Shown piece after piece: positions 5,316 to 21,461 of a stretch of 64,000 nucleotides of DNA (the stretch's first letter is position 1; every line of letters starts with the position of its first letter). The stretch is taken from assembly GCA_021463645.1 (NCBI GenBank), contig JAJTYI010000009.1, forward strand, positions 29,343 through 93,342. Reading direction: 5' to 3'. Under the pieces are notes generated by a model. It had not been told where the DNA came from, did not search any database, and worked only from the letters and a program-made list of their open reading frames with translations. This DNA is from a bacterium (lineage in GTDB: Bacteria > Patescibacteriota > Dojkabacteria > B142 > OLB20). Position numbers and translations under genes: made by a program.

Positions 5316-6254
5316 TCAGAAATCAAAATCAATCCACTTCTGAATCGCCTTCACCATCTCAACATCAGTACTCCCATGGTGACCTGCTAGATGAACTATG
5401 TCTAAAATGGAATGGGGAAGTGCCTTATGCAATTTCCAGGCAGAAATCATCGGTGTGACAATGTCGTACCGACCATTTACAATAACCATTGGAATATCTT
5501 TTAATTTCTGAATATTTTCATCCTTTAATATTTCTTCATCTTCTAGGAAATAATTGTTAACTGAATAATGAAGCATTATTGATGATGAAACAATTTCTTT
5601 CTCGATATCAATTTCATTCTCTTCATCTTCTTCGGGGAACAAACTAAGAATTGAACCCTCCCACTTCCCAAAGTTTGTAAATAACTTTTCTTTTAGTTCT
5701 TTATTATTACCTTTTGCGATTTCATATAAATATTCTAAATAATCTTCTCTTTTATCACTTGGGATAATATTCATCAAATCTTCAAATTTATCAGGAAATA
5801 GTTGATTAGCACCGTACTTAAAGAGCCAATCATTTTCTGTTTCTGATGCGAAGAAAACTCCTCTTAATAATAATTTCTTTACAGTTTCAGGATGTTTCTG
5901 AGCATACAGCAAAGCTAAGGTTGACCCCCAACTCGGTCCGTGAATGTACCATTTTTCGATATTTAAGTGTCTTCTGAGTTTCTCAATATCCTCAACTGTA
6001 TCTGACGTGGTATTTTCATCAAGTAAACCGGCAGGCTGTGACTTACCACAACCTCTTTGATCGAATAAAACTACTCTGAATCGTTTCAAATCATACGGAT
6101 TGACATGTTTAGGTTTTGAGTTTGACCCTGGTCCACCATGGATTTGAAGTACAACCTCACCCTCTGGATTGCCGTATTGGTGGTAATAAAGTTTGTGTTT
6201 TTCGCTTACTTGGAGGTAGCCGTCGTTATAGGGAGTTGGTTCTTCCTCTTTCAT
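5316..6254 (-). CDS. pip: Proline iminopeptidase (alpha/beta hydrolase, S33 family)
   Basis: 312 aa. 'HGGPGS' oxyanion motif, nucleophile elbow 'GPSWGSTLAL', and C-terminal 'AGH' typical of prolyl aminopeptidases. Confidence 0.85.
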   Translation of the reverse strand: MKEEEPTPYNDGYLQVSEKHKLYYHQYGNPEGEVVLQIHGGPGSNSKPKHVNPYDLKRFRVVLFDQRGCGKSQPAGLLDENTTSDTVEDIEKLRRHLNIEKWYIHGPSWGSTLALLYAQKHPETVKKLLLRGVFFASETENDWLFKYGANQLFPDKFEDLMNIIPSDKREDYLEYLYEIAKGNNKELKEKLFTNFGKWEGSILSLFPEEDEENEIDIEKEIVSSSIMLHYSVNNYFLEDEEILKDENIQKLKDIPMVIVNGRYDIVTPMISAWKLHKALPHSILDIVHLAGHHGSTDVEMVKAIQKWIDFDF

Positions 6255-6273
6255 TTTTAATTTTGTAGTTAAA

Positions 6274-6474
6274 TTATTCGTCTAAATCGCCTACAACTGC
6301 ATCATTATAGGCTTCCTGAGGATTCTTATTCCACTTTTCCTCAGGTATATCATTTATTCTATTTTCGAATCTCCATTGATCGGGGGAAATTTCTATTGGT
6401 TGGTCCTCTCCAGATATAATATTCTTTTCTTCCCATTCTTTATTTGGGTTTACATCCCCTTCTTTGCCTGCCAT
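6274..6474 (-). CDS. Small acidic hypothetical protein
   Basis: 66-aa ORF, 19 nt upstream of pip on the same strand. No motif recognised, so it may not be coding. Confidence 0.4.
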   Translation of the reverse strand: MAGKEGDVNPNKEWEEKNIISGEDQPIEISPDQWRFENRINDIPEEKWNKNPQEAYNDAVVGDLDE

Positions 6475-6608
6475 ATTTTGAAATAATAATAAATAAACTT
6501 AAGAAAATTTTAGCAATAAATTATTAATTTATACAGTTTTCTGAATACTTTAGCTTTATTCCGTATTTCAAGTTCATCTGAAAAATGAGACTTACTTATA
6601 AATTTCTC

Positions 6609-6658
6609 TTGACATTTTTGTATACCCTGTATACCATATTAAATATATTAAGTATACC
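6609..6658 (+). promoter_or_regulatory. Putative lexA promoter with three GTATACC repeats (candidate operator)
   Basis: TTGACA at 6609-6614. Possible -10 at 6632-6637 (TACCAT, 17-nt spacer). GTATACC at 6620-6626, 6629-6635 and 6652-6658. The ATG is at 6662, so the leader is very short. Confidence 0.35.
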
Positions 6659-6661
6659 AAT

Positions 6662-7324
6662 ATGACACATACTATAACCACAAGACAAAACGAAATATTA
6701 TCCCTTATCAAGTCCTTCATTATCGAAACTGGCCAAGCACCCACGCTTACAGAGATGGAGCGAGCACTTGGTATCACTCGTCGAGCAGTTGTTAAGCACC
6801 TACAAGCACTCGAGAAGAAGGGATTAATAAATCGATCTTCATCATCTCGAGGCATCGCTCTCCGAGAGACACAGTCAGGACAGATGTTTATAGATGTAAA
6901 TATCCTCGGTTATGCAAATGCTGGAGCACCTATGGTGATAGCCCAGGAACAACAACTCGGATATCTACGAATAAACCGCAGTCTACTTCCAGTTACAAAA
7001 GACGTCTTCGCCCTTATGATAAAAGGAGACTCCATGAATATGCGCGAAGTCGATGGAGGCACACTCGAGGATGGTAAGTATGCAGTCATTGCCAAGAATG
7101 TCGATATAAAAAACGGAGATGTTGTACTAGCCATTATTGATAACTGCGCAACTATCAAAACCATAAAAAAAGACCGAAACATTGTGGTTCTTTACCCAGA
7201 GTCTACCAACACACGACACAAACCATTCTACCTAGATGCATCTTCTCTAGGAGATACAGATATCTACGGCAAAGTCGTAGCAGTTTTAGATAACCCTAAC
7301 TTCTCAACGAAACATGCAGAATAA
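6662..7324 (+). CDS. lexA: LexA repressor (S24 peptidase)
   Basis: 220 aa. N-terminal winged-HTH ('LTEMERALGITRRAVVKHLQALEKKGLI'), Ala-Gly cleavage site in 'NAGAPM', catalytic Ser in 'KGDSMN', Lys in 'TIKTIKK'. Confidence 0.9.
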   Translation: MTHTITTRQNEILSLIKSFIIETGQAPTLTEMERALGITRRAVVKHLQALEKKGLINRSSSSRGIALRETQSGQMFIDVNILGYANAGAPMVIAQEQQLGYLRINRSLLPVTKDVFALMIKGDSMNMREVDGGTLEDGKYAVIAKNVDIKNGDVVLAIIDNCATIKTIKKDRNIVVLYPESTNTRHKPFYLDASSLGDTDIYGKVVAVLDNPNFSTKHAE

Positions 7325-7784
7325 TATCTACGCACCCGAAACAACATTTTTAGACTATCAGGAGGACTTTCGTTCGACTAGATTGTACGAAGAACAGAAA
7401 AACGAATCTCGAAAGGATCTTGAACTTTCTACAGTAGCTTTTTCGACTCCTATTCGAAACGAATCTGACCTGAAACTCGACATTCAGTCATACCTTATAA
7501 AAAAGCCTTCTAGCACATTTTTTATGAAAGCAGGGGATAATGACCTTCGAAAATGGGGAATTCACAAGGGAGATTTACTTGTGGTGGATCGTTCGTTACC
7601 CATTACAGATAAATCAATAGTTGTCGTGAGCCTAGATGGTGAGTTATTAATCAAAAAGATATTAATATCGAAACACATCACCTACCTAACACCTTGGAAC
7701 ACAAGATCCACACTTTATCGTATCACTCCGGAGAATGACTTCGAGATATGGGGAGTAGTTGCCTACAATATTCATGAACTCTGA
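7314..7784 (+). CDS. umuD: UmuD-like S24-fold protein with the catalytic Ser replaced by Asn
   Basis: 156 aa. Aligns by eye to E. coli UmuD: 'FMKAGDNDLRKWGIHKGDLLVVD' against '[23 protein letters not shown]'. The Lys in 'LLIKKI' is retained. Overlaps lexA by 11 nt. Confidence 0.75.
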   Translation: MQNNIYAPETTFLDYQEDFRSTRLYEEQKNESRKDLELSTVAFSTPIRNESDLKLDIQSYLIKKPSSTFFMKAGDNDLRKWGIHKGDLLVVDRSLPITDKSIVVVSLDGELLIKKILISKHITYLTPWNTRSTLYRITPENDFEIWGVVAYNIHEL

Positions 7785-9073
7785 TGTCCTCGGATATCTA
7801 TGGTATCGTCGATTGCAATAATTTCTACGTTTCTTGCGAGAGAGTTTTTGATCCGACACTCCGCAACCGTCCCACTGCAGTCTTATCAAATAACGACGGA
7901 TGTGTCATCGCCAGATCAAACGAATTGAAAGCAATGGGAGTCCCTATGGGCGCACCTTTGTTTGAATGGAAAGATCGATTTATCGAGAACAACGTCGCTG
8001 TGCGTTCCGCAAATTTCACACTTTATCAAGATATGTCCGAGAGAGTATTTCGTTCACTCCACGAGTTTTGTCAGGAAATTGAAATATATTCGATTGATGA
8101 AGCGTTTTTGCGTATACCTATAACATCACCTGAAAGGATACTTCGAAACTCCATAGAGATGAAAGAAACGATTTATCGCTGGACAGGAATCCCGATATCT
8201 ATTGGAATAGCAAATACCAAAACATTAGCCAAACTCGCCAACAAAATCGCGAAGAAATTCATCGAAAATGATGGGGTTTATCAGATAGATGACATTACAG
8301 ACTATAGACATAATAAGTATTTAGAACATCTCGACATTGATGACATTTGGGGAATAGGTGGACGCATTGCTCGAAGACTCAAAATCTTCGATATTGCGGA
8401 CATCCCAAGTCTCCTACAAGCTGATAGACATCTACTTCGACAAGAATATGGAGTTATGTTGGAGCGAACTTGGCTCGAACTCCATAGTATCCGATGTTAC
8501 CCAATCAACCCACATCGTAGCTCGAAAAAAGGCATACTCTGTAGCCGTACGTTCAAGAAAGCATACACCGAATACAATCAAGTTGCTCAGGCAGTTGCGA
8601 GATTTACAGATAGTGCATCCAGAAGCCTAAGGGCACAGGGTTCGGTAACGTCTAGAATTTGGGTTTTCCTTACAACCGATAGATTTACTCCAGAAGGGCG
8701 TTACTCTAATTCATATCTGATAAAGCTCGAAACACCTTCTGATTACACACCACTGTTAACGAAGAGTGCACTAAATGGATTAAAGCAAATTTTCCGTTCA
8801 GGGTATAAATACAAAAGGGCAGGGGTGTTTTTAGAGAATTTCTACAATAAAGGCGAATACCAACAAAATATTTTTACTACATCCAATGCTCAGGAAGAAA
8901 TAAAACAAACCATTTTAATGAGGTCCTTTGATAAACTCAACTCTATCTGGGGCAAAGGTACAGTGAAGTTTGCAAATCAGATGGTTTTCTTGAACCCAAT
9001 CAAAGAACAAGCACTTCGTTCACCAAGATATACTACAAGATGGGAGGAGATACCGGTTATAAGGAGTCGATGA
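7784..9073 (+). CDS. umuC: Y-family DNA polymerase, UmuC type (Pol V catalytic subunit)
   Basis: 429 aa. 'DCNNFYVSCERVFDP' and 'VLSNNDGCVIARS' match the UmuC N-terminus. Its ATG overlaps the umuD TGA (TGATG). Confidence 0.9.
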   Translation: MSSDIYGIVDCNNFYVSCERVFDPTLRNRPTAVLSNNDGCVIARSNELKAMGVPMGAPLFEWKDRFIENNVAVRSANFTLYQDMSERVFRSLHEFCQEIEIYSIDEAFLRIPITSPERILRNSIEMKETIYRWTGIPISIGIANTKTLAKLANKIAKKFIENDGVYQIDDITDYRHNKYLEHLDIDDIWGIGGRIARRLKIFDIADIPSLLQADRHLLRQEYGVMLERTWLELHSIRCYPINPHRSSKKGILCSRTFKKAYTEYNQVAQAVARFTDSASRSLRAQGSVTSRIWVFLTTDRFTPEGRYSNSYLIKLETPSDYTPLLTKSALNGLKQIFRSGYKYKRAGVFLENFYNKGEYQQNIFTTSNAQEEIKQTILMRSFDKLNSIWGKGTVKFANQMVFLNPIKEQALRSPRYTTRWEEIPVIRSR

Positions 9074-9076
9074 AAT

Positions 9077-12000
9077 TTACCTCAAGAATGAGAACACCCT
9101 AGACAAACTACTGATTACTAGTTCTATTGCGCTATTAGACTCTTTCGGAGTGATTGCTACATAGTCTAATGAGTATGTCGTGTTCTCTGCATCGTCAGTC
9201 GAGACTGCTCTCAAATGATAGACCTTTCCAGGTGCGAGCCCGGAGATTACGATGGTATGATCAAGTGTAAAATTGCTATCTAACTGTGATCTCTGAGGAT
9301 AGCTACTTCCAGTTCCTTCTCCATATTCAACCTGTGAAGTTGTAGGTTCGTCTGTCGTCCAAGTCACGATAAACTGAGAGCTGTCTGTGACATTACCTTT
9401 GCCAGCTTCAATCTGTACATTTGAGATTGCAGGTGGTCTGGTGTCAGTAGCAGTTGTTATTCTCTGTGCTGTCGATGTTGCTTGATTTCCTAATTTATCA
9501 GAGCCCTTAACTAATAACTCGTAAACCGTATTTGGTAATAATCCACGGATAATCATTTGATGTTCACCACTCATTAAGTCTAGATTAACTTCTTCTCTGA
9601 TTAACTCAACATTACCTTCAGGGAAGAGACTTACCACGGATGTGACTTCTGTATTAGACTCCCAAGACACTAAAACAGTTGGTTGTGCAGCATTCTTCAC
9701 TTGTTGAATTCGTACATTCGATAATTTTGGTTGTGGCAATGTAGTGAAATCAAGAACTGTGCCTTCATAAACATAACCTTCATCATCTTCAGTATCAACT
9801 CTGAAATAATATTTACTGCCTTCACTCAACCCATCGAGAAGAGTAGTGTATCTAGACTCAAGTGGACTTGTAGCGATTTCTTTACTCGAACCAAATCCTA
9901 CCGACGTTCCGTAGAGGAAATTCACCTTTGAAGACCCTGTAGTTGTAAAATTAATAACTGCTGTACTAATTCCCACACTACTTACAACAACATCCTTAAC
10001 ACTTGGGGGTGGGGCAGTAGTAAAGGTGTATTCATCCGACAGTCCGAGATTACCGTCTTCGTCAGTCCATTTAGCTTGGAAGTAGTACGTAGTGCCCGGT
10101 TCTAGGTTTGTAAGTATTAAATCATGATCAATTCTTTGTTCAGAGTTTCCAACTTCTTCCTTGAAGTAGTCATTACTTGCAAGTCCATAAGAAATCCTTG
10201 AGTCTGAATCACGATCAGTTATCCAACTAATCCTAGCATTTCTCGTCGAAACACTACTTACAACTGGTGCTGATTCGAGGATTGCGGGACTTGTGAATTT
10301 ACCGTCAGGGAAGTTACTTCCTGTAGACGATACAGCAGAGCAGTTGTTTGTCGAATCGCATGCTCTCACACAGTAATAATGATCTTTTTGTTGAAGATTT
10401 GTATCGACATATGATCCACCTGCCGTTTCCCCAACTTTTGCGAATAGTGAGAAATTTTCACTACAGTTTGCATTTTCGGCAAACGATCTATAGATAAAAT
10501 ATTTTGCAACTCCAGCCCCTAAATCCTCAGGTTCATCCCATGATACGGTAAGTCTCCAATTCTTAGTTGTTTTAACAGATATGTCTGCAACATCTAAATT
10601 TCTAGGAACACCAGGGGCTGATGTGTTGGCGTAGAATTTGATAGAAGCATAATCTCCATAATTAATATTTGATGCTTCATCACGACTCACCACATAGAAG
10701 GTATTTTCACCAGGTTGTGTTGCAAATGCATCAGGATTTAATGAGTTACTACTTGTGAAGATACAGGTTCCAGATGTAGGAAGAGTATTAACTGTATAAC
10801 AATACGATAGGTTGGACTCCGCGCCTTGGTAGATTTCTGGGGTCAACCATGTGAATGAGAACTCATTTTTATCGTTAGTTACTGGAGTAACCGACAGATC
10901 TCGCGGTGCTGACGGTGCAGTCGAGTTGTATTTCAATATTGCCGAAATAGCGGAAGCAGATGTGTTACATGCATAGTCAAGAGTTCTTAGGTAAAATGGT
11001 GTTTCTCCAGAAGGTAGATTATCAAAATCCGCATCAAGCGCGTAAGTATTTGTAGTCAAAACATCATTACAATCTTGATCTCCGGTGTGTCCACCTCCAT
11101 ACCAAGTTCCATTGGTACCAAGTTTGTACTGATATCCTTTCACTAGTGAATGCGCATCTTGAGCCATATTTGCTCCATCGGATGGCCATGAGATAACAAA
11201 ACTATCAAATGATCTCTGATAACTTGCAGGAGCAAATAAACCTCTAGGATTTGTTGGTGGAGTATTATCAAACTTGAAGCCAAATATCTCGGGTTCTAAA
11301 TCATATACATTTCCAGTGTTATCTACTGCTCTAATGATTAAGTAATACGAATCAGTGGTTGATTGCAACCATGTGTTTCCTCTCAGATTTGTATTGGCAA
11401 AATCGATAGAATTTGTAGTCACAACAAAAGGACAAGTAGTATTTGCTGTTGAACCAGGGCTAGATCCTAGAAGCCCCTTATCGTTTGTTGGATTTCCTGC
11501 AATGTCTGGCCCAAGATATAAACAATAACCTCGAAGACCTGATCCATCGACATCATCGACACCTGCAACCCAGCTGAAATACGGCGCTTGAGAATTTGTG
11601 TAGTTATTTTCAGCGATAGTATCGCCTGATACCGTTCTTTTCAAAGTAGTTTCAGTAGCGTTAACCTCTGGTGGTATTGCATCTTGTACATAGTTGATTT
11701 GAGCACCATTAAATACTGGGGTTGTGTTTTGATTTGGTGAATTTAGAGTTGCTTTCATTTGCAAGTAACGTTTTGGAGGACTCGATATGGATAAATTCGG
11801 TGTGCTACCTGTAACTGGAGCATAATCAGACCACACGAGATTGTCTTCAGAAGTTCTAGTTTGGTAATTAATTGTGTTTCCATTTAACAATTCTGTGATT
11901 AGGAGGTTCGGGTTATTTCCCCATTGGCCTGCGTTCCCTAGGTCGAGAATGTCTGTTTCGTAGTCTCCAGTGGTTCTGTACTTATTATCATCCTCTGAAC

Positions 12001-15000
12001 CAGATTGATGGTTGGCAAGTCCAGAGTTGTAGAGTGACAATACAGCAGTATCGCTTAGAGGTGCATTAAAAATTCTTAGGTCTGAGATTGATCCATTAAG
12101 ATGCCCTACGGGCCAATTCCAAACTTGTCCTATTTTTTGGACCAGAGTTGAATTGTTTGCAGTAGTCGAGGAAAAATCTAGTGCACTTGAATTTTTTAAA
12201 ATACCATTTTCATATATAGCAGCACCAGATGCTCCAAAAGTGAATACAAAGTGCCTCCAACCTTTTCCTGTGCCAGAAAGTGTATACGATAAACCCCTGG
12301 CAGTCGCTGCAGTATCGACCCATTTAGCTGCAGTAAATTGTCCAGAAGGATTGAATGTCATGTCGTATCTACCCCAACCAGTACCCATTATTCCAAAAGA
12401 GTCTGTCCATGTTGTTTTCGTTGACAATTCATTCCAACTCCAGTTTTCTGGTCGAATCCAAACGCTCCATGTTCCCTCCTGCATTGGGAAGTCGGAACCA
12501 GCATCTGGGTCAGGAAAATATATTTCAGTTGAAGCCCTAGTAGATACAGAATTGTGAGCTTCGCCTGACCATGTATAATTACCTCCTAGACTTCCATCGG
12601 CATAGCTCGTTACTAGCAATGCTTTTGCCTCTAACTGCACGCCATCTACGTAAATCGTTTTCCCTGCCAACGCTTGAACACCGTAGGAAAGTGATGCATC
12701 AGCTGTAGCAGCTGAATATATCAATCGCCACCAGCCTCCTCCTGCATCTGTGTAACTCGTGGGAGTTACAACATTACCGCCAAAAATAAGTTTAGCTACT
12801 GTTGCTGAAACTGTTCCTCCAATATTTCCTGTGGTGCCATCGTATACATATGCAGAAAAAGTATGTGTTGAAGTAGCGTTAGGATCTATGGCGATTGTGT
12901 ATTCATCCGGCATTGTTCCGGCATTTACTAACTTTACGCTTTTACTTCCAAATTTGTAGTATGGGCTAGTGGTGTTCTCGGTGGGTGTCAGCGCAGTGAA
13001 GTTGGAAATGGTACCATCATATTGATTCAACGCTCCATGGCTACCAAAATTAATAGGGGTTGGAATGGATGAAAAACTTACAACACCTGTATTCGTTGCA
13101 ACTTGAATTCCATTAATCAATAAGTTTAAACTACCTCCACTTGTATAGTTGACTTCTATATCGTAAGTAGTTCCTGCATTTAATGTAGGGTTTGACCAGT
13201 CCGCAACTACAGTTGTTCCGTTAAATTGTCCCGCGACTCTCAATAAGGTAGATGATTCCTTTCTCAGATACAAGTAATTCGAACCAGCACCATAGGTTGC
13301 AAATATTGTTGGATTTGCTGAACCAAACTTGTCGGCATCGGCAAAATTGTGCCTAGGAGTATATTTAAACTTAATCACACCTCTATCAGCACTAAGTTCA
13401 GTTGTCGTTTGAGTCAAAGTATCTGCTCCGTCTACTCGTAATCCGGTAGTTTCACTAGAATTAGCTTCTGAAGCCGATGTTACTGTAAGTGAGACGTTTG
13501 TTAACTCAAATGAATATAGATCATCCACATAAGACGTACCCGTACCACCAACTCTAACCCATTTATTTGTCACACCGACTTTCCTAAAAACCAACGGGTA
13601 ATGTTTATAAAGGTCACCAGAAGCACCAATTGTTAAACTCGCAGTACCCCCATCATTAGCTGTAGCATTTTCCCCATATGAAAGTTGTTGACTTCCTGCT
13701 GTTTCCCTCATCCACGCACCAAGAGAATAAAAATTATTAATTGTTCCTCCATGATCATATAAGATAGTGAGTTGGCTATTAAATCTGACTCCAGAAGTTC
13801 CAGAATGAACAACTGTGGTTTCCTGGGATGAATCCCCAGCATTAGAGTATTCAGTAGTAGTATGCCCTGATGGCAACCATGGATCACCCGAACCTGTCTC
13901 AAATGAAGGATTGCTAATTTTATTAGTAAGCATTTCTACCTGATGCCAATAACACGTACCTAAACTGGCTGTATTTACTAACTTTATTCTCAAAGTTGTC
14001 ATCCCAGTAGGTGCTTCTCCTGTGAAAATGAAAGTATTTGGTGCTGTTCTGACTGATGTTGTCGTTCCTGTTAAGCTACCGATCTCGGCACCTCCAGTCT
14101 GGTTATACAGAATAATTTTTGGGACACATGTTCCATCACTATGCGCTAGTCCTCTTACTACCCAATCATTGCCTGCTGCTACTGTTTTTTCATAATAGAT
14201 ACCCTCATCAGCTGCGTCACTTGTTATTTTATATCCTCCCGAAAAAATCTTTTCATTCGAAGCTAGCGCAGTGACCGAACTTGGCGTTCCTTCGCTTACC
14301 CATCCATCAGTCGTATACGTTCCGTTAAGCATAAATCCACCAGTATTTGTCGTGCTCGTGTAAAGGAGATTCGAAGAGTGAGGATGACTCCAAGCATTTC
14401 CATTTCCAGTTGCCAATTCACCAACAGTTCCATTAGTAGGTAGTGCGAAAACAACATCCCAACTTCCAGTAATCAATGTTGGATCTTTGCCCGTTCCCGA
14501 GTTGTATATTAAATTAAGTTCATCACCATTCCCTACATCGATTCCATTGGTTCCATCAAAAAGTGGACGACGGTAAATTGTGAGGCCCTCGATGAGTGCT
14601 TCAGCTGGATTCTTATAAACAACTTCTGGTGATCTATCATCATTTCCTATTTCAAATAAAGACTGGCTACTTGGAGAACCAGAAATTACCGTATTAGCAA
14701 ATACATGTGTATCATTTATACTTACTGAAAAATAATTTGCACCACTTAAAGTCGCATATCGACTCCACCTAAATACAACATTGTAAGTTGTTCCTGCCGT
14801 CCAACTCGATACACTCGTACAAACTATATTTGACCAACCTTGGTCAAAACATAGGTTACCATCAGCTGCTTTATATATGCCATTCACCGAATAAGCATTT
14901 GTATTGTATATTATATGTAATTTCCCATCGTTTCCATTCCACTCCGGTGTTATCCAAAAGGCTATTGAGCCTTGATTTTGATCAAAAGTCTGTTTAAATG

Positions 15001-16759
15001 TACCAGCTGAATCTATATTTGAGCCAGTACTTGCTTGTATCGAATCCTGGTTAGTCGTATTATATTGCCCCTGTATGAGAACGCCAGCAGTAAACGGACC
15101 TGCACTATTCCTCTTCGCCATTTTCGCTGTAAACGTATCAAGCGTATTGTCGTAGTTGAAGTAGTTCAGTCCCCAGTTCGTGCTGTAAGTACCATGCTCG
15201 AAACTTGGATTTGTGATCAGATTAGTTGTACCTTCTTCGATAAATACTCCTTCATGTCCTGCGTAACTCTGACCCTTAACTTGTCCTGAACTTGTCGAAG
15301 AATCTATCCCGGCCACACCACTGACATATTTAGCTCCGGTGATTGTTCCATGATTTCCATTCCCACTCGCATCGATAGCTTTTCCAGAATTTCTGGGATC
15401 ATCGCCATTTTCATCCATATGGTAAACAAGTACCACATTACTATCTATCAGATCGTTCGCCGAATCTGATTCACTATATAATCTGGATACTTCTGTTTGT
15501 GTTAAATAGTTTTTCGAAATAAATACTTCATCTATCAGACCATTGTAACCTCTAGTACTCCACTGTAAATCATTAATTCTAAAAGTAGCACTTGCATCTG
15601 TAAATGTTCTATTAGTCGTTTGTGTCGTCTTAAGCACTCCATCTAAATATATCTTCTGTTCATTAGCTTTCAAAGTAAGTACTAAATGATGCCAATCAGT
15701 ATAGTTTTGTAAATTGCCAGCACTGATATGACCCCCTCCTGCTCCACTAAACCAAAAATTCATACTTCCCGAGGCATACCACTCCATATATCCAAAGTCT
15801 AGTCTCCATAATTGTGCCGATGTTGGATGCATAGGTTTCCCTTTAAACCATATAGATATACTCAACTCGTCTCCGTGGCTGAAGGTCGTACTATTCACAT
15901 AGTCGTCACTACCGTCAAAACTCAGTGAGCTCCCTCCTGAATACCTCAATGCACCCCCCTGTGCGCTCGGTATCTCCCCATCGATACATGTTGTGGTCCC
16001 ATTAAACGGACAGACCATGGTTGCTTCAGCGTCGCCGATATTGTAACCATTATCTCCAAAACCAGGGTTAGTTGCTCCAGGATTTTTATAGTAAAGATAG
16101 TAATTCCCACTTGATGCTCCTGCTGTCATCTCTGCTTGAATTGGGAATGTTACTACAGTCGCAGTAGAATCAGAACAATCCGTGGCACCACTTGCTTTGT
16201 AATAGCTTCTCGCAAGTTCAGTATGATTACCAACTCCAGTAGAATAAATAATTCTCAAGTCGTCGCAATCATTTTGAAGGTTTGAAGCGTCGAATAGTTC
16301 TTTTGTGTTTAAGGTTACTTGTATTGGTGTATTCGCAGGCAATGTAACTGCTGATAGATTTTTAACTGTTAGCTGTTTCTTGAGGTTCCAGCCCATATCA
16401 TACCAATTATCATCTTTACCCAAAGACACAGCAGAAGATGAAATCACAACATCAGTTCCACTACCAGCAGTTAATTCACTATCACCGCCTTCGACTAATG
16501 TATAGCTGGTTTCATCGAGTGCTCTCAGAATAGGAACAAGTTCAGTAACCATAGCATACGTTCCCAAGACAAAACCCAAACCCAGCATCATGACTGTAAA
16601 AGTATTCAACTGCCACCTAGCTATAGTAATCTTCTTAAAGAATAAAAATTTGGTGATTTGCTTAAGTTTTTTGCGCACGAAATTCTTTCGTACACGAAAT
16701 ATACGAGAATAGTCTCGATGCATTCTCTGCAAGGTTTTATTGGAACGCGAAACGCGCAT
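9077..16759 (-). CDS. Giant membrane-anchored surface protein (DUF2341-like, LamG/ConA-like lectin, CBM-like and FN3-like modules)
   Basis: Uninterrupted 2560-aa ORF. Basic N-terminus plus one TM (FTVMMLGLGFVLGTYAMV). LamG_3-type signatures ('LSFDGSDDYVNS', 'DASGNGNHGTITGAKYVSG'). CBM4/9-like 'NPSFEHG' and 'NPSFETG'. About 870 C-terminal aa of FN3-like modules. Confidence 0.9.
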   Translation of the reverse strand: MRVSRSNKTLQRMHRDYSRIFRVRKNFVRKKLKQITKFLFFKKITIARWQLNTFTVMMLGLGFVLGTYAMVTELVPILRALDETSYTLVEGGDSELTAGSGTDVVISSSAVSLGKDDNWYDMGWNLKKQLTVKNLSAVTLPANTPIQVTLNTKELFDASNLQNDCDDLRIIYSTGVGNHTELARSYYKASGATDCSDSTATVVTFPIQAEMTAGASSGNYYLYYKNPGATNPGFGDNGYNIGDAEATMVCPFNGTTTCIDGEIPSAQGGALRYSGGSSLSFDGSDDYVNSTTFSHGDELSISIWFKGKPMHPTSAQLWRLDFGYMEWYASGSMNFWFSGAGGGHISAGNLQNYTDWHHLVLTLKANEQKIYLDGVLKTTQTTNRTFTDASATFRINDLQWSTRGYNGLIDEVFISKNYLTQTEVSRLYSESDSANDLIDSNVVLVYHMDENGDDPRNSGKAIDASGNGNHGTITGAKYVSGVAGIDSSTSSGQVKGQSYAGHEGVFIEEGTTNLITNPSFEHGTYSTNWGLNYFNYDNTLDTFTAKMAKRNSAGPFTAGVLIQGQYNTTNQDSIQASTGSNIDSAGTFKQTFDQNQGSIAFWITPEWNGNDGKLHIIYNTNAYSVNGIYKAADGNLCFDQGWSNIVCTSVSSWTAGTTYNVVFRWSRYATLSGANYFSVSINDTHVFANTVISGSPSSQSLFEIGNDDRSPEVVYKNPAEALIEGLTIYRRPLFDGTNGIDVGNGDELNLIYNSGTGKDPTLITGSWDVVFALPTNGTVGELATGNGNAWSHPHSSNLLYTSTTNTGGFMLNGTYTTDGWVSEGTPSSVTALASNEKIFSGGYKITSDAADEGIYYEKTVAAGNDWVVRGLAHSDGTCVPKIILYNQTGGAEIGSLTGTTTSVRTAPNTFIFTGEAPTGMTTLRIKLVNTASLGTCYWHQVEMLTNKISNPSFETGSGDPWLPSGHTTTEYSNAGDSSQETTVVHSGTSGVRFNSQLTILYDHGGTINNFYSLGAWMRETAGSQQLSYGENATANDGGTASLTIGASGDLYKHYPLVFRKVGVTNKWVRVGGTGTSYVDDLYSFELTNVSLTVTSASEANSSETTGLRVDGADTLTQTTTELSADRGVIKFKYTPRHNFADADKFGSANPTIFATYGAGSNYLYLRKESSTLLRVAGQFNGTTVVADWSNPTLNAGTTYDIEVNYTSGGSLNLLINGIQVATNTGVVSFSSIPTPINFGSHGALNQYDGTISNFTALTPTENTTSPYYKFGSKSVKLVNAGTMPDEYTIAIDPNATSTHTFSAYVYDGTTGNIGGTVSATVAKLIFGGNVVTPTSYTDAGGGWWRLIYSAATADASLSYGVQALAGKTIYVDGVQLEAKALLVTSYADGSLGGNYTWSGEAHNSVSTRASTEIYFPDPDAGSDFPMQEGTWSVWIRPENWSWNELSTKTTWTDSFGIMGTGWGRYDMTFNPSGQFTAAKWVDTAATARGLSYTLSGTGKGWRHFVFTFGASGAAIYENGILKNSSALDFSSTTANNSTLVQKIGQVWNWPVGHLNGSISDLRIFNAPLSDTAVLSLYNSGLANHQSGSEDDNKYRTTGDYETDILDLGNAGQWGNNPNLLITELLNGNTINYQTRTSEDNLVWSDYAPVTGSTPNLSISSPPKRYLQMKATLNSPNQNTTPVFNGAQINYVQDAIPPEVNATETTLKRTVSGDTIAENNYTNSQAPYFSWVAGVDDVDGSGLRGYCLYLGPDIAGNPTNDKGLLGSSPGSTANTTCPFVVTTNSIDFANTNLRGNTWLQSTTDSYYLIIRAVDNTGNVYDLEPEIFGFKFDNTPPTNPRGLFAPASYQRSFDSFVISWPSDGANMAQDAHSLVKGYQYKLGTNGTWYGGGHTGDQDCNDVLTTNTYALDADFDNLPSGETPFYLRTLDYACNTSASAISAILKYNSTAPSAPRDLSVTPVTNDKNEFSFTWLTPEIYQGAESNLSYCYTVNTLPTSGTCIFTSSNSLNPDAFATQPGENTFYVVSRDEASNINYGDYASIKFYANTSAPGVPRNLDVADISVKTTKNWRLTVSWDEPEDLGAGVAKYFIYRSFAENANCSENFSLFAKVGETAGGSYVDTNLQQKDHYYCVRACDSTNNCSAVSSTGSNFPDGKFTSPAILESAPVVSSVSTRNARISWITDRDSDSRISYGLASNDYFKEEVGNSEQRIDHDLILTNLEPGTTYYFQAKWTDEDGNLGLSDEYTFTTAPPPSVKDVVVSSVGISTAVINFTTTGSSKVNFLYGTSVGFGSSKEIATSPLESRYTTLLDGLSEGSKYYFRVDTEDDEGYVYEGTVLDFTTLPQPKLSNVRIQQVKNAAQPTVLVSWESNTEVTSVVSLFPEGNVELIREEVNLDLMSGEHQMIIRGLLPNTVYELLVKGSDKLGNQATSTAQRITTATDTRPPAISNVQIEAGKGNVTDSSQFIVTWTTDEPTTSQVEYGEGTGSSYPQRSQLDSNFTLDHTIVISGLAPGKVYHLRAVSTDDAENTTYSLDYVAITPKESNSAIELVISSLSRVFSFLR

Positions 16760-16826
16760 TGTTAGTGAAAATGGTTTATATAATTTAACTTTTTTTGGAG
16801 ATGTTTACAAATTTTTTGTAACGAAA

Positions 16827-18353
16827 TTATTCGTAACGGAGTGCATTTAGAGCAGATATTTTCGTAGCTCTTCTAGCGGGAAATAATCCAGTCAAATAAC
16901 CTACCATTACAGACAATGCTATTACTAAGAACACGAATGTGAAAGGTATACTACTAACACTTATAACATTACCACCTTTACTTATAGAATATGAAGTTAA
17001 TATCAAACTGATTAATTTCCCGCCTAAGTAACCTAACAACAACCCCGACACTCCTCCAAGAAAACCCATTAATAAAGATTCGATAAGAAAGAGTAACCTA
17101 ACTTCAGCAGATTTCATTCCTATTGTCTTCATCAATCCGATTTCTTTAGTCCTCTCAAGAAGTGAAACAGTTAAAGTATTAAACATTCCAAGAGAAGCAA
17201 TAGCTAAACCAAAAGCTCCAATTAATCCTAATCCTATCCTCACGCTACTAAACAATTGTTCAATTTCTGCAACTGTATCTTGAACCGATGTGGTTAAATA
17301 TCCCTGCGCTTCAACTTGTTCTCGAATTCTTTGAACATTATTTTGATCATCGGTAATTATGCGAACTTCGGTGAAATTTACTACACCAAGTGTACGAAGG
17401 TTGAAAAATGGCGTGTATATTGCTGGTTCTGAGTTATCAGAGAGTACCCCTACAATAGTGAAATTTTCTGGCAGTGACACGACTTTTATTCCTTCTCTAT
17501 TCAAGTGTTGACTAGTCACAGTAAATGCAAGACTTACGTTTTCTCCTACAGCGTCATCAAAAGGTAATCCAATAATCTCAATTGCAGACCTGTTCATCAC
17601 GATTTCTTTTAAAGCGGTATTTGGTAAATTTATTTCATCAACGTCAATTTTCTCTCCGTCTGTATTTTCTGTATCAAGTTCGATAAACTCCTCACCTTCG
17701 GAAACCTCTACTGGATTTTCCAGTAAGTTTGCACTTTCTGTGTTCTTTGTTTCATTCTCTTCAGTTAAATTCTCAGCTTGCTTAACTTCGTAGTAAGTTT
17801 CATTACTTTCGAATAGTTTTCCATAAACAGGTTGTATTGCAGACTCTTTGAGATAGTCAGTAGTCACTCCATAGACAGGAATCGCCGCGTTTGATTGTTT
17901 GTAGGACATATCACCCACAATTGCAACCACGGGCAAGGTCTTTTGGACATTTGGAATCTTTTTCAGGTCGGCTAGAACAGTATCATTAAGTCGTAACTTA
18001 CTTCCAGCTTGAGTTGAGACTTGCACTTGTTTCAACTCTTCAAGTCTAGTTGCCTCTGAAATAACCAAATCCTGCATCCCATAGCCAATAGAAACTAAAA
18101 ATACAATCGAAGCGATACCTATCGACATACCAATTATCGTAACCAGAGTCCTAGTTCTACGTACCATTAAATTGACTCCGGCGATATAGAGCAAATCGAT
18201 TAATGAAACTTTAATCCTATATTTCCTAAACCTCTGAATATTGATAACAACTAATATAATCACTATTAAAATGATAGCGATCTCTATAAAGACAGAGCTG
18301 AAAAGTGTCTCAAATAATGGTTCAAATTTTACTCTTAATTCATTTAAATTCAT
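16827..18353 (-). CDS. ABC transporter permease, MacB/FtsX family, with a large extracytoplasmic domain
   Basis: 508 aa. 'RRTRTLVTIIGMSIGIASIVF' is a MacB-type TM1. A roughly 290-aa loop follows, then a C-terminal FtsX domain ('LLERTKEIGLMKTIGMKSAEV'). There is an extra N-terminal helix. Confidence 0.85.
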   Translation of the reverse strand: MNLNELRVKFEPLFETLFSSVFIEIAIILIVIILVVINIQRFRKYRIKVSLIDLLYIAGVNLMVRRTRTLVTIIGMSIGIASIVFLVSIGYGMQDLVISEATRLEELKQVQVSTQAGSKLRLNDTVLADLKKIPNVQKTLPVVAIVGDMSYKQSNAAIPVYGVTTDYLKESAIQPVYGKLFESNETYYEVKQAENLTEENETKNTESANLLENPVEVSEGEEFIELDTENTDGEKIDVDEINLPNTALKEIVMNRSAIEIIGLPFDDAVGENVSLAFTVTSQHLNREGIKVVSLPENFTIVGVLSDNSEPAIYTPFFNLRTLGVVNFTEVRIITDDQNNVQRIREQVEAQGYLTTSVQDTVAEIEQLFSSVRIGLGLIGAFGLAIASLGMFNTLTVSLLERTKEIGLMKTIGMKSAEVRLLFLIESLLMGFLGGVSGLLLGYLGGKLISLILTSYSISKGGNVISVSSIPFTFVFLVIALSVMVGYLTGLFPARRATKISALNALRYE

Positions 18354-19153
18354 TTACTTGCTTTTTCTAGTTTAAATATTGATTTCCCTTTGTTTAGAAC
18401 ATCATTAATCAATTCTTTCGTTTCATCCTGCAAATAAATTCCAGCTAAATTTCCATCTTTAATATAGAAAGTCCTATCTGCGTATGATAAATACTGTAAA
18501 TCATGCGTTACCACAATCACAGTTCTCCCAATTATGTTCAATTCTTTAAGACCTTCAACTAATCTCTTGCTCGAATCTATATCAAGATTACCTGTAGGCT
18601 CGTCAGCGATTAGTATCTCAGGCTCTGTAATTAAAGCACGTATCAATGATATCTTTTGTTGTTGACCTGATGATAACTCGGTTGGCTTGTATTTAGCCCA
18701 CTTATCCATAGCATAACTCTTTAACTTTTCTTCGGCAATTTTCATAGCTTCTCTATGAGGTGTACCCAATAAATTCAAAGGCAAGGCAACATTATGAGCT
18801 ACATTCATTGCTTTTACCCAAATTGGTTGTTGATACATAATTCCAATTTTTTCCAATCTTGTCATTGACCTTTCGTCCTCGTTTTCTGCATAAAGATCCT
18901 TGTTAAATAGTTCAACTCTTCCTTTGGTGGGGTTTTCTAGTCCAATCATTGAATGGAGAAGGGTAGATTTACCTGAGCCAGATGGTCCAAATATGATGAT
19001 AAATTCACCTCTTTTAATTTCCAAATCTATTCCATGCAGAACTCGGGTTTCACCAACACCAGTATAGAAGTATTTATGCAATCCATACGTTGCAATAATA
19101 TTCTCCTCTTTTTTCCTAGGTGTTTTAGGTATAGAAACAGAAATTGCCATCAA
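18350..19153 (-). CDS. ABC transporter ATP-binding protein (MacB/LolD-like)
   Basis: 267 aa. Walker A 'GPSGSGKST', signature 'LSSGQQQKISL', Walker B 'ILIADEPTGNLD'. Overlaps the permease gene by 4 nt. Confidence 0.9.
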   Translation of the reverse strand: MMAISVSIPKTPRKKEENIIATYGLHKYFYTGVGETRVLHGIDLEIKRGEFIIIFGPSGSGKSTLLHSMIGLENPTKGRVELFNKDLYAENEDERSMTRLEKIGIMYQQPIWVKAMNVAHNVALPLNLLGTPHREAMKIAEEKLKSYAMDKWAKYKPTELSSGQQQKISLIRALITEPEILIADEPTGNLDIDSSKRLVEGLKELNIIGRTVIVVTHDLQYLSYADRTFYIKDGNLAGIYLQDETKELINDVLNKGKSIFKLEKASK

Positions 19154-19283
19154 ACAATATTTAATATTTCTATTATGAACTTAAATGAGTTTTTTATCAA
19201 AATTCTATTTCACTCTCTCTTTTACATAAATCTATACTAACTTTCCCCATTTCGCTATATAATCAATTCTGTTTTACTCAATA

Positions 19284-20543: not shown

Positions 20544-20548
20544 TAAGT

Positions 20549-21052
20549 ATGCGAAAAGATAGAACCAAATATTTCGTTTTACCCCGAGTTGTTGTCTTTG
20601 TTTATCATCGAGATAAACTTTTATTAATCGAAAAATCGATAGAAGACGAAGAGGGAAATAGCACACCTATATTTTATCCAATAGGAGGGCACGTAGAGCC
20701 TGGAGAGGATATAAAGAATGCATGTATTAGAGAAGTATATGAAGAAACTGGAATTGATAATTCAAGCCCTAAATTGAAGGCATTAATTTACAATACTGGC
20801 TTTGACAATTATCAAATAATTCTTTTCATTTTCAGACTTTATGTAAATGACGACTTTTCAAAAGAATCAAAAGAAGGGAGATTGAAATGGATTGAACTGA
20901 GCAAGCTAAGCAAAACAAATGTATTCAAAGATGTAGAAATCTTTCATAATTCAATGGAGAAAAGCGAGGAAAACGAAATTTTATTCGGTACGTCAGTTTT
21001 TAAGGATTTCAATCTAATGGAGGTCGTAATTAATCAGAAGAAGCTGTTTTAA
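20549..21052 (+). CDS. NUDIX hydrolase
   Basis: 167 aa with a Nudix box 'GGHVEPGEDIKNACIREVYEETGI'. Confidence 0.8.
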   Translation: MRKDRTKYFVLPRVVVFVYHRDKLLLIEKSIEDEEGNSTPIFYPIGGHVEPGEDIKNACIREVYEETGIDNSSPKLKALIYNTGFDNYQIILFIFRLYVNDDFSKESKEGRLKWIELSKLSKTNVFKDVEIFHNSMEKSEENEILFGTSVFKDFNLMEVVINQKKLF

Positions 21053-21461
21053 GCTTCGAGTTATCAAAATTAAACTCTTTCCCTGTTAATTTCGATAAAA
21101 TTGCAATTAATGAATGCTCTTGGCCATCAGAAGATTTAATTGCTAAGTAATCTCCCCAATCAGCTTCATCGTCAGCAGTGTAGGCGATAATTTTTGTATT
21201 TGGACTAATTTGCCGTAGTTTTTCAGCTAAATTTCTACCATCCTGACTTCCTTTTCCGAGATAACTTGATATCAAAGCAATGTCAGGATAGTTTTTCTCA
21301 CGACTCATTATCATTAAATACTTTTCGGCATCAGCGTTATTTCGGAAATATTTACCACTATCAATTCCCAGATTGAAACATATCAAATCCACTACTGTTG
21401 CGTAGTTTTCATCGAAATCGAACTGTACAAGAACCTGATCTTTTTTCATATTAAAAAACAA
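21030..21461 (-). CDS. Single-domain receiver-like (pseudo-REC) protein
   Basis: 143 aa in a CheY-like pattern: 'VLVQFDFDEN' (acidic pair), 'PDIALISSYLG' (Ser where the phospho-acceptor Asp is expected), 'KIIAYTADDE' (Thr), 'LAIKSS' (Lys). Overlaps the helicase gene by 11 nt. Confidence 0.5.
   Translation of the reverse strand: MFFNMKKDQVLVQFDFDENYATVVDLICFNLGIDSGKYFRNNADAEKYLMIMSREKNYPDIALISSYLGKGSQDGRNLAEKLRQISPNTKIIAYTADDEADWGDYLAIKSSDGQEHSLIAILSKLTGKEFNFDNSKLKTASSD

What the first reader, a model, noticed from the sequence alone, without database searches (positions are those of the whole stretch)
6662..9073. Overlapping lexA-umuD-umuC operon whose UmuD-like protein lacks both the catalytic Ser and the cleavage site
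The three genes are translationally coupled, by an 11-nt overlap and then a TGATG overlap. LexA keeps the full self-cleavage apparatus (Ala-Gly in NAGAP, Ser in GDSM, Lys in IKTIKK). The UmuD-like protein aligns well with E. coli UmuD but differs in two places:
- It has 'GDND' where UmuD has 'GDSM', so Ser60 is replaced by Asn.
- It has 'TVAFSTP' where UmuD has 'QCGFPSP', so Cys24-Gly25 is replaced by Val-Ala.
The Lys is retained.

In E. coli, RecA*-stimulated autocleavage of UmuD to UmuD' switches Pol V from a checkpoint state to an active state. A UmuD that cannot cleave, encoded directly behind its own repressor, suggests two possibilities. Pol V may be controlled only at the transcriptional level, or this protein may act as a permanent UmuD-like or UmuD'-like accessory factor.
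Basis: partly seen in the sequence, partly recalled or inferred. Interest (0 to 1): 0.6.

Follow-up and report, generated by a model that had tools for sequence, protein, structure and literature searches.

The report
Protease-dead UmuD in a lexA-umuDC operon
A Candidatus Dojkabacteria (CPR) genome carries a conserved lexA-umuD-umuC operon in which the small subunit of the error-prone DNA polymerase V has lost the serine and the cut site needed for its self-cleavage "on switch", so the polymerase must be controlled some other way.

Summary
Three overlapping genes at 6662-9073 encode a fully cleavage-competent LexA, a UmuD homologue and a UmuC. The UmuD homologue has the UmuD' fold but no nucleophilic Ser and no Ala/Cys-Gly scissile bond. 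One correction: profile and multiple alignments put Asp77, not Asn76, in the Ser60 column.

This is not an error or a pseudogene. All 14 protein clusters of the clade (56-98% identity) carry Asp or Glu at that column, keep the Lys, and have Val/Ile-Ser/Ala at the cut site. Core dN/dS is 0.02. The lexA-umuD*-umuC order, with overlaps, recurs in every clade locus, behind an invariant TTGACA-N5-GTATACC-N2-GTATACC...GTATACC promoter/operator.

The N-terminus (1-36) is predicted disordered and varies from about 9 to 40 residues. The arm motif ATVSF[SA]TP is conserved.

Best reading: a permanently uncleaved, UmuD'-like accessory subunit. Pol V would then be gated by LexA-controlled transcription, and presumably by RecA* and turnover, not by UmuD processing.

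Dead UmuD homologues next to umuC recur elsewhere (several Saccharimonadia lineages, Chitinophagaceae, Terriglobia), so this is one case of an apparently undescribed but widespread variant. Function is inferred, not shown.

The parts
6609..6658 (+). Promoter and candidate LexA operator. It comprises -35 TTGACA (6609-6614), GTATACC box 1 (6620-6626), box 2 (6629-6635, overlapping -10 TACCAT at 6632-6637) and box 3 (6652-6658, 3 nt before the lexA ATG). Boxes 1 and 2 form GTATAC-N3-GTATAC.
   Evidence: It is the best sigma-70-like match in 6250-9300 (10 of 12, spacer 17). TTGAC, both GTATACC boxes with the following AT, and the third GTATACC are invariant in 7 loci whose flanks are otherwise unconserved (A5). 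Three of the 8 GTATACC copies in the 64 kb window lie here. GTATACCNNGTATACC has its only exact match in the window here. Binding by LexA is inferred, not tested.
6662..7324 (+). lexA: a winged-HTH domain plus an S24 domain with an intact Ala-Gly site, Ser (GDSM) and Lys.
   Evidence: TIGR00498 scores 132.7 bits, above the 110.95 cut-off. PF01726 and PF00717 both hit. The alignment to E. coli LexA is.
7314..7784 (+). umuD-like gene (156 aa), an S24 pseudo-peptidase. It overlaps lexA by 11 nt and umuC by 1 nt.
   Evidence: Core dN/dS is 0.023 against L002, with dS 0.63.
7314..7421 (+). N-terminal extension (residues 1-36). It is predicted disordered and is variable in length and sequence across the clade. 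Long forms share a short conserved start, MQxxxYxxxT.
   Evidence: AF2 pLDDT is below 50 for residues 1-36. About 9 to 40 residues precede the ATVSF motif in clade members. dN is 0.6-1.2 between distant members, but dN/dS is 0.038 between close ones.
7428..7451 (+). Arm motif STVAFSTP (residues 39-46; clade consensus ATVSF[SA]TP). It is the homologue of UmuD VQCGFPSP. Val41-Ala42 (7434-7439) replace the Cys24-Gly25 scissile bond.
   Evidence: Alignments are. Within the clade, T40, F43 and P46 are invariant and V41 nearly so.
7542..7544 (+). Asp77 codon (GAC), in the column of the catalytic Ser60.
   Evidence: The column is D in 13 clade clusters and E in one.
7653..7655 (+). Lys114 codon (AAA), in the column of the general base Lys97. 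It is retained.
   Evidence: It is invariant in A1 and A2.
7784..9073 (+). umuC: a Y-family polymerase with IMS, IMS_HHH, IMS_C and the UmuC-type C-terminal region.
   Evidence: PF00817 scores 5e-36, PF11799 1.5e-17 and DUF4113 8.6e-13. The best NCBIfam hit is UmuC, NF002955, at 346 bits. The DCNNFY and SIDEAF catalytic motifs and QQNIF (aligned to the E. coli QLNLF clamp motif) can be read.

Best explanation
The middle gene encodes a UmuD orthologue that has become a non-catalytic subunit.

What the sequence shows:
- It keeps the UmuD' beta-fold and the arm motif. It has lost the Ser nucleophile (now Asp/Glu, probably paired with the retained Lys) and the Ala/Cys-Gly bond. RecA*-stimulated self-cleavage is therefore not possible.

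Proposed role (inferred):
- It is made in fixed proportion with UmuC by overlapping, reinitiating translation, and serves as a permanent, unprocessed UmuD'-like partner of UmuC.
- The conserved ATVSF[SA]TP arm would dock on UmuC. The variable, disordered N-terminal extension would be tolerated, or used as a degradation tag.

Proposed control (inferred):
- Control of mutagenic synthesis moves from UmuD processing to the operon's own repressor. LexA binds the GTATAC-N3-GTATAC operator over the -10 element, plus a third box at the start of the mRNA.
- RecA* triggers LexA self-cleavage. The operon then fires, and newly made LexA shuts it off again.
- Activation of the polymerase by RecA*, and proteolytic turnover, probably remain as further layers.

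Shown here: the gene anatomy, the loss of catalytic and cleavage residues, the fold, the conservation, the purifying selection and the operator footprint. Inferred: non-cleavability, binding to UmuC, LexA binding to the boxes, and UmuD'-like activity.
For: Loss is complete and conserved:
- The Ser60 column is D/E and the cut site is V/I-S/A in the query, P0001-P0012 and P0166. All neighbouring canonical homologues (about 40% identity) have GDSM and AG.

It is a real, constrained gene:
- Core dN/dS is 0.023 at dS 0.63. Distant pairs have saturated dS and core dN of about 0.2.
- The 90% cluster has 19 member sequences from many assemblies.

The fold is intact:
- AF2 core pLDDT is about 90-96, and the best PDB matches are UmuD' and UmuD.

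The partner is intact:
- UmuC has its catalytic motifs, a clamp motif and a UmuC-type C-terminal domain.

The linkage is obligatory:
- lexA-umuD*-umuC, with overlaps, is present in all clade loci examined: window, L001-L004 and L071-L075.
- Flanking chromosomal synteny is conserved in the four loci with gene tables: ABC transporter, hydrolase, then the operon, then an AddA-like helicase.

The arm is conserved while the upstream extension is not:
- The extension shrinks to about 9 residues in P0011 and P0012. This fits an arm that still works and an extension that does not need to be removed.
- Published AlphaFold models of Pol V place the UmuD' arm inside UmuC, and the UmuC C-terminal carboxylate on UmuD' S36/T71/K73 (PMC11791011). 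By my arithmetic these are Ser60/Thr95/Lys97.

Precedents for cleavage being dispensable:
- Phage P1 HumD is born truncated (PMC7092418; sequence).
- Many metagenomic homologues start at GFPSP and lack Ser and/or Lys.

Against: - No experiment or complex model supports binding to UmuC or activity.
- In E. coli the engineered non-cleavable UmuD(S60A) blocks mutagenesis (PMC3901139). By analogy alone, an uncleaved protein would be inhibitory.
- The published Pol V model puts the free N-terminus of UmuD' near the UmuC active site. Even the shortest clade members have about 9 extra residues there.
- Asp at the Ser60 position would repel a C-terminal carboxylate bound as in that model, so the interface must differ.
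- Clade UmuC tails after RYTT are 10-21 residues, against 9-10 in most canonical loci. Canonical loci overlap this range (11, 12, 16), so the difference is only weakly suggestive.
- Co-transcription with lexA implies basal expression of the polymerase genes, which is risky for an always-active form.
- AF2 monomer models could not tell a docked arm from a free one. A canonical control had an equally low-confidence arm.
Confidence: 0.55

Rival explanations
1. It is a permanent full-length-UmuD-like factor. The uncleaved protein holds UmuC in a non-mutagenic 'checkpoint' or restrained state, or manages other polymerases. It never activates translesion synthesis as UmuD' does.
For: E. coli UmuD2C has a checkpoint role, and UmuD(S60A) suppresses mutagenesis (PMC3901139). 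The protein keeps an N-terminal extension, and long forms share a conserved MQxxxYxxxT start. Between close relatives this region is under purifying selection, with dN/dS 0.038.
Against: The extension is dispensable in part of the clade; only about 9 residues precede the arm motif in P0011 and P0012. A catalytically intact UmuC with a clamp motif and C-terminal domain is strictly co-inherited and translationally coupled. That is hard to explain if it were never activated.
Confidence: 0.17
2. It is still processed, but by another enzyme. Candidates are the co-translated LexA acting in trans through its own Ser/Lys site, or an unrelated protease. Activation would then remain post-translational.
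For: The only other S24 active site nearby is LexA, encoded 11 nt upstream in every clade member. The arm around the former cut site is strongly conserved. Tandem two-domain UmuD proteins pair a dead domain that keeps AG with a live domain. This suggests trans-type cleavage exists in the family.
Against: Where a dead domain is plausibly cut by a live partner, the AG bond is kept. Here it has changed to V/I-S/A in all members. The arm does not resemble the cognate LexA cut region, YANAGAPMV. No evidence exists for LexA cutting other proteins in trans; this last point is from my own knowledge.
Confidence: 0.1
3. It still self-cleaves, using a different nucleophile or register, for example Asp77/Lys114 or a Ser elsewhere.
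For: Lys114 is invariant and an acidic residue is conserved beside it. Two members have Ser one residue earlier: GDSDM in P0002 and ADSDL in P0005.
Against: That Ser is not conserved; the column reads N/S/D. No S24 enzyme is known to use Asp as nucleophile (my own knowledge). The scissile Ala/Cys-Gly is also gone.
Confidence: 0.03
4. It is an artefact: a sequencing or assembly error, or a decaying pseudogene.
For: None beyond the fact that the source is a metagenome-assembled genome.
Against: The same residues occur in 14 clusters and many independent assemblies. dN/dS is 0.02. The reading frame is intact, and so are its overlaps with both neighbours.
Confidence: 0.01

Closest known systems
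E. coli UmuD / UmuD' (accessory subunit of DNA polymerase V, peptidase family S24)
   Same: The fold matches (TM 0.81-0.87 on UmuD' chains). The gene sits immediately upstream of, and overlaps, umuC. It keeps the conserved arm residues (F..P), the Lys97 equivalent and Glu93, and is presumably under LexA control.
   Different: Ser60 is replaced by Asp/Glu and Cys24-Gly25 by Val-Ala/Ser. It scores 95.9 bits, below the 110-bit cut-off of NF007621. lexA lies in the same operon. The N-terminal extension is variable.
Engineered non-cleavable UmuD(S60A) of E. coli
   Same: Both lack the nucleophile and stay full length.
   Different: S60A is a laboratory mutant that blocks mutagenesis (PMC3901139). 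The protein here is a natural, conserved form that has also changed its cut site and co-evolves with its own UmuC.
Phage P1 HumD (a natural UmuD'-like protein made without the N-terminal 24 residues)
   Same: It is a natural solution that makes RecA*-mediated cleavage unnecessary (PMC7092418).
   Different: HumD starts at the Gly25 equivalent (MGFPSP) and still has Asp-Ser and Lys in the catalytic columns. The protein here keeps an N-terminal extension and has lost Ser. It scores 54.5 bits, below the 120-bit cut-off of NF051876.
YolD/YqjX small subunits of Gram-positive UmuC-like polymerases
   Same: They are non-proteolytic small partners, proposed to insert an N-terminal arm into the polymerase (PMC6511836 and PMC12926913).
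   Different: They belong to an unrelated sequence family. The protein here is a true S24/UmuD homologue.
lexA-linked mutagenesis cassettes (for example imuA-imuB-dnaE2) and UmuDAb of Acinetobacter
   Same: An SOS repressor is tied directly to an error-prone polymerase module (PMC8565304).
   Different: Here a canonical LexA is fused into one overlapping operon with umuDC, and UmuD has no DNA-binding domain. Among 70 umuD loci, lexA was adjacent only in CPR genomes.

Membership tests
UmuD (Pol V autoproteolytic subunit, peptidase S24) | S24 / UmuD' beta-fold and significant sequence similarity | tested here: met
   PF00717 scores 1.6e-15. UmuD' chains score 2e-15. Foldseek best hits are 1ay9, 1umu and 8gmt.
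UmuD (Pol V autoproteolytic subunit, peptidase S24) | Nucleophilic Ser (Ser60) | tested here: not met
   Asp77 occupies the column. It is D or E in all 14 clade clusters.
UmuD (Pol V autoproteolytic subunit, peptidase S24) | General-base Lys (Lys97) | tested here: met
   Lys114 is invariant.
UmuD (Pol V autoproteolytic subunit, peptidase S24) | Ala/Cys-Gly scissile bond in the N-terminal arm | tested here: not met
   The window has Val41-Ala42. The clade has V-S, V-A or I-S.
UmuD (Pol V autoproteolytic subunit, peptidase S24) | Curated family score (NCBIfam NF007621, 110 bits) | tested here: not met
   It scores 95.9 bits.
UmuD (Pol V autoproteolytic subunit, peptidase S24) | Encoded directly upstream of umuC in one operon | tested here: met
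   There is a 1-nt overlap with umuC. The arrangement is conserved in all clade loci.
UmuD (Pol V autoproteolytic subunit, peptidase S24) | RecA*-stimulated self-cleavage and activation of UmuC | not testable with these tools
   This needs biochemistry. The sequence predicts no self-cleavage.
HumD-type born-truncated UmuD' | Protein starts at the Gly25 equivalent; NF051876 cut-off of 120 bits | tested here: not met
   About 9 to 40 residues precede the arm motif. It scores 54.5 bits.
LexA repressor | Equivalog score, wHTH domain, Ala-Gly site, Ser and Lys | tested here: met
   TIGR00498 scores 132.7, above 110.95. PF01726 hits. AG, GDSM and K align to E. coli LexA.
LexA repressor | Binds an operator in its own promoter | tested here: inconclusive
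   Invariant GTATACC boxes overlap the -10 element in 7 loci. Binding was not tested, and no second regulon member was found in the window.
UmuC (Pol V catalytic subunit) | Y-family core, catalytic carboxylates, clamp motif and UmuC-type C-terminal region | tested here: met
   IMS, IMS_HHH, IMS_C and DUF4113 all hit. DCNNFY, SIDEAF, QQNIF and the RYTTRW tail are aligned with E. coli UmuC.
UmuC (Pol V catalytic subunit) | Curated family score (NF002955, 431 bits) | tested here: not met
   It scores 346.1 bits. This is still by far the best family; the next is Pol IV at 142.6 bits.

The most novel reading that the evidence does not exclude
UmuD self-cleavage, usually taken as the defining timer of SOS mutagenesis, may have been discarded repeatedly in nature.

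In Dojkabacteria the former active site would then be rebuilt as a binding pocket. The Asp-Lys pair would replace Ser-Lys, alongside a lengthened UmuC tail. A single autoregulated lexA-umuD-umuC transcript would provide the whole damage-sensing circuit.

A stronger version: the co-translated LexA, or RecA* itself, acts on the dead UmuD. Examples are trans-processing or heterodimer formation. LexA cleavage would then directly license the polymerase.
Probability: 0.12. Interest if true: 0.7.

Novelty: new variant of a known kind. Interest (0 to 1): 0.45.

Why it matters
The textbook model makes RecA*-mediated UmuD-to-UmuD' cleavage the late, rate-limiting licence for mutagenic synthesis. A conserved, selected UmuD that cannot cleave, always paired with an intact UmuC, would show that the accessory function can be separated from the protease function in nature.

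It offers a simple test system for what UmuD' actually contributes to Pol V: the arm, the groove for the UmuC tail, or both.

It also points to a minimal SOS circuit in a reduced CPR genome: repressor, accessory subunit and polymerase on one self-repressed transcript. It gives a candidate LexA box for Dojkabacteria.

Databases currently name these proteins 'S24 family peptidase', 'LexA family transcriptional regulator' or 'DNA polymerase V'. The first two are probably wrong for this clade.

Tried and rejected
- Docked versus free arm. I compared AF2 monomer models of the Dojkabacteria protein and of a canonical homologue, P0017, built from the same alignment. Both arms are low confidence (36-56 vs 53-62 pLDDT), so the result is uninformative. 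Multimer prediction with UmuC was not available, and the two genes are in different frames, so no fused window sequence could be submitted.
- Literature. Searches for natural Ser-less UmuD found none in the held library. The Patescibacteria SOS paper (Sanchez-Osuna 2017) and the HumD paper (PMC94175) are not held. I therefore cannot say whether the GTATACC motif or the dead UmuD was noted there.
- Further operator copies in the window. None was convincing. A GGTATAC upstream of dnaE (33418-33424) lacks the 9-bp repeat.
- UmuC tail length as a covariation signal. The clade has 10-21 residues after RYTT, against 9-10 in most canonical loci, but the Chitinophagaceae dead-UmuD partners have 9. This is suggestive only.
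- The pseudogene or sequencing-error reading was rejected.
- An internal alternative start was considered. There is no internal Met, only a TTG at codon 24. It is disfavoured because the N-terminal region shows 13 synonymous against 4 non-synonymous changes versus L002.
Full report
**1. Anatomy**

The window holds three same-strand ORFs: 6662-7324 (220 aa), 7314-7784 (156 aa) and 7784-9073 (429 aa).
- The first two overlap by 11 nt (ATG at 7314, TAA at 7322-7324).
- The last two share TGATG.
- No Shine-Dalgarno-like sequence precedes either internal start. Coupling by termination-reinitiation is therefore the natural reading; this is an inference.

Family assignments:
- ORF1 is a LexA by the NCBIfam equivalog (132.7 bits, cut-off 110.95). 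It has LexA_DNA_bind and Peptidase_S24 domains. Aligned to E. coli LexA, it keeps Ala-Gly, the Ser of GDSM and the Lys.
- ORF3 is a UmuC-type Y-family polymerase with IMS, IMS_HHH, IMS_C and DUF4113. Its best NCBIfam hit is UmuC at 346 bits, against 143 for Pol IV. It has DCNNFY and SIDEAF catalytic motifs, a QQNIF motif aligned with the E. coli QLNLF clamp motif, and the RYTTRW tail.
- ORF2 is a UmuD homologue: PF00717 1.6e-15, NF007621 95.9 bits (below its 110 cut-off), E. coli UmuD' chains 2e-15.

**2. The catalytic columns**

phmmer against UmuD/UmuD' structures aligns residues 40-152 without gaps. MAFFT alignments with 24, about 250, 12 and 71 sequences agree.

| E. coli UmuD | Window protein |
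|---|---|
| Cys24-Gly25 | Val41-Ala42 |
| Ser60 | Asp77 |
| Lys97 | Lys114 |
| Glu93 | Glu110 |

This does not matter for the conclusion. Neither column holds a conserved Ser: the Asn column reads N/S/D in relatives, and the Ser60 column reads D, or E once.

**3. It is a real, conserved form**

- A search of 5.8 billion proteins found 12 clusters at 56-98% identity. There is then a sharp drop to about 40% identity.
- A search of 50%-identity representatives found one more close relative, P0166.
- All 14 clusters share D/E at the Ser column, the Lys, and V/I-S/A (or V-N in P0166, ANF in the register) at the cut site.
- The next-best homologues nearly all show AG, G-x-S-M and K.
- The 90% cluster has 19 members from NCBI, JGI, ENA and Logan assemblies. 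Some are named Candidatus Dojkabacteria bacterium.
- Against the closest other species (L002), the core has 35 synonymous and 4 non-synonymous differences (dS 0.63, dN/dS 0.023). Distant pairs have saturated dS and a core dN of about 0.2.
- Sequencing error and pseudogene are excluded.

**4. Structure**

- AF2 with an 81-sequence alignment gives a confident core (pLDDT about 90-96 for residues 61-156). Residues 1-36 are disordered (below 50) and the arm at 37-60 is intermediate (50-66).
- Foldseek puts UmuD' (1ay9, 1umu) and RecA-bound UmuD (8gmt) first, with TM 0.81-0.87 on the target and rmsd about 2.1 A. LexA and lambda cI C-domains follow.
- Across the clade, the segment before the arm motif varies from about 9 residues (P0011, P0012) to about 40. 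It is unconserved except for a short MQxxxYxxxT start in the long forms.
- ATVSF[SA]TP and the core are strongly conserved; 44 columns are invariant.

**5. Context and regulation**

- Every clade locus I could read has lexA-umuD*-umuC with overlaps. These are the window, L001-L004 and L071-L075.
- In the four loci with gene tables, the operon is flanked by the same ABC transporter and alpha/beta hydrolase upstream. Downstream lie a 131-134-aa ORF and an AddA-like UvrD/PD-(D/E)XK helicase.
- The module is therefore chromosomal and vertically inherited.
- In the window, about 12 kb is inserted between umuC and that helicase.
- In 70 umuD loci from GTDB species representatives, tblastn found lexA adjacent only in the four clade loci and in one further CPR (Saccharibacteria) MAG, L064. 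The five additional clade loci L071-L075 show it too.

Upstream of lexA, seven diverged loci were aligned.
- They share an invariant TTGAC(A), then GTATACC-N-T-GTATACC-AT, then a third GTATACC about 17 nt later. The surrounding AT-rich sequence is not conserved.
- The consensus scan picks TTGACA-17-TACCAT (6609-6637) as the best promoter in the region. Box 2 therefore overlaps the -10 element, and box 3 lies at the start of the transcript.
- Three of the eight GTATACC copies in 64 kb are here.
- I read this as the LexA operator. It can be described as a GTATAC-N3-GTATAC palindrome or as a 9-bp direct repeat. L064 has GTGTAGTGG-GTGTAGTAT in the same place, which favours the direct-repeat description.
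- Binding by LexA is inferred.

**6. How general is a dead UmuD?**

- Among about 254 single-domain homologues from the two searches, about 48 lack Ser and/or Lys. Fourteen of these are the clade itself. Typical changes are Ser to Ala/Gly/Thr and Lys to Arg. Several begin exactly at the GFPSP arm.
- In the genome loci, a Chitinophagaceae/Sphingobacteriales group has GDAM...R with ATGFGAA. Two Terriglobia have GDGM...R.
- All five Saccharimonadia loci lack Ser and/or Lys while mostly keeping AGFPN[AP]. Four of the five have a detectable umuC beside them.
- A profile search from those Saccharimonadia sequences shows a large dead sub-lineage (G-S/G-L-H...K/R, about 22 clusters). Many CPR homologues in the same search are fully canonical.
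- Loss of the dyad is therefore recurrent, not CPR-wide.
- The Dojkabacteria clade is distinctive in three ways: an acidic residue at the Ser position with Lys kept, loss of the Gly at P1', and fusion of lexA into the operon.

**7. Mechanism**

Loss of both nucleophile and scissile bond makes self-cleavage very unlikely; this inference carries high confidence. What the protein then does is less certain.

Relevant published context:
- Cleavage activates UmuC and removes a Lon degron. The arm carries the ClpX tag (PMC5342242).
- UmuD(S60A) suppresses mutagenesis (PMC3901139).
- AlphaFold models of Pol V place one UmuD' arm in the UmuC palm/little-finger cleft. They place the UmuC C-terminal carboxylate on UmuD' S36/T71/K73, with E69 nearby (PMC11791011). 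Adding 24 gives Ser60/Thr95/Lys97/Glu93, that is, the old active site.

On that picture, the groove used for self-cleavage is re-used to hold UmuC. In this clade the groove is altered (Asp77, Leu112, Lys114, Glu110). The UmuC tail after RYTT is 10-21 residues, against 9-10 in most canonical loci. This may be co-adaptation, but the evidence is weak.

I favour a constitutive UmuD'-like subunit (0.55) for four reasons:
- The intact UmuC is strictly co-inherited and coupled.
- The arm is conserved.
- The extension is dispensable in part of the clade.
- Nature has other cleavage-independent forms: HumD and the born-truncated dead homologues.

Rivals:
- A permanent UmuD-like restraint (0.17).
- Processing by another protease or by LexA in trans (0.10). 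This is disfavoured because dead domains that plausibly get cut keep AG, whereas this clade lost it.
- An alternative nucleophile (0.03).

**8. Comparison and novelty**

It works like, and descends from, UmuD. But it fails two defining features of the autoproteolytic family (Ser, scissile bond) and the curated score. I therefore file it as a non-peptidase UmuD homologue, not as a 'Pol V autoproteolytic subunit'.

Novelty is a new variant of a known kind. Interest is moderate. It is a clean natural experiment on what UmuD cleavage is for, but it rests on sequence inference, and related dead forms are common.

Noticed in passing
Not in the window: proteins P0167-P0171, P0175, P0188, P0189, P0191, P0201, P0204, P0239, P0285, P0302, P0312: These proteins of about 245-285 aa have two UmuD-like S24 domains in tandem. 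The N-terminal domain usually keeps an Ala/Cys-Gly cut site (x-Gly in all) but has often lost Ser and/or Lys. The C-terminal domain keeps Ser and Lys but has no arm. They look like a single-chain UmuD 'substrate plus protease' pair.
   Followed up: partly
L025, L028, L029, L031, L032, L034-L037 (Chitinophagaceae/Sphingobacteriales and related Bacteroidetes MAGs); L065, L066 (Terriglobia); L059, L061-L064 (Saccharimonadia); P0315-P0375 subset: These are other, apparently independent lineages of UmuD homologues lacking Ser and/or Lys (GDAM..R, GDGM..R, GSLH..K/R). Nearly all sit next to a detectable umuC, and most keep the AG or TG of the cut site. Canonical GDSM..K forms also exist in CPR.
   Followed up: partly
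window 6609-6658; L064 3235-3285: This is a candidate Dojkabacteria LexA box: GTATACC-N2-GTATACC plus a third GTATACC, invariant in 7 loci. A different CPR lineage (L064) has GTGTAGTGG-GTGTAGTAT at the same place upstream of its lexA-umuD-umuC. That suggests a 9-bp direct-repeat operator type. I could not compare it with the published Patescibacteria motif because the paper is not held.
   Followed up: partly
window 9077-21052: Relative to related loci, about 12 kb is inserted between umuC and the AddA-like helicase (21451-24594, minus strand). The insert carries a 2560-aa LamG/FN3-repeat surface protein (9077-16759, minus strand), a MacB/FtsX-type ABC transporter pair, a phosphodiesterase and a Nudix gene. 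The 131-134-aa ORF that follows umuC in the other loci was not looked for here.
   Followed up: no
window 33463-40909: Overlapping ORFs run from dnaE (33463-36852), through two unassigned ORFs, to uvrB (38777-40909), so they look like one operon. A single GGTATAC lies 39 nt upstream of dnaE (33418-33424), but without the 9-bp repeat seen at lexA.
   Followed up: partly
window 7314-7360 (residues 1-15 of the UmuD-like protein): Long-form clade members share a short N-terminal motif, MQ[NT][ND].Y..[QE]T.[LFI][LVI].[DE]; P0166 has KQQTLLTEE. Short forms lack it. It could be a degron or a partner-binding peptide, like the ClpX/Lon signals in the E. coli UmuD arm. This was not tested.
   Followed up: no
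window 9029-9073 and the UmuC C-termini of L001-L004, L071, L073, L075: UmuC tails after the RYTT motif are 10-21 residues in the clade, with two members carrying an extra 'RKIGVISRYQT'-type extension. Most canonical loci have 9-10, and the Chitinophagaceae dead-UmuD partners have 9.
   Followed up: partly
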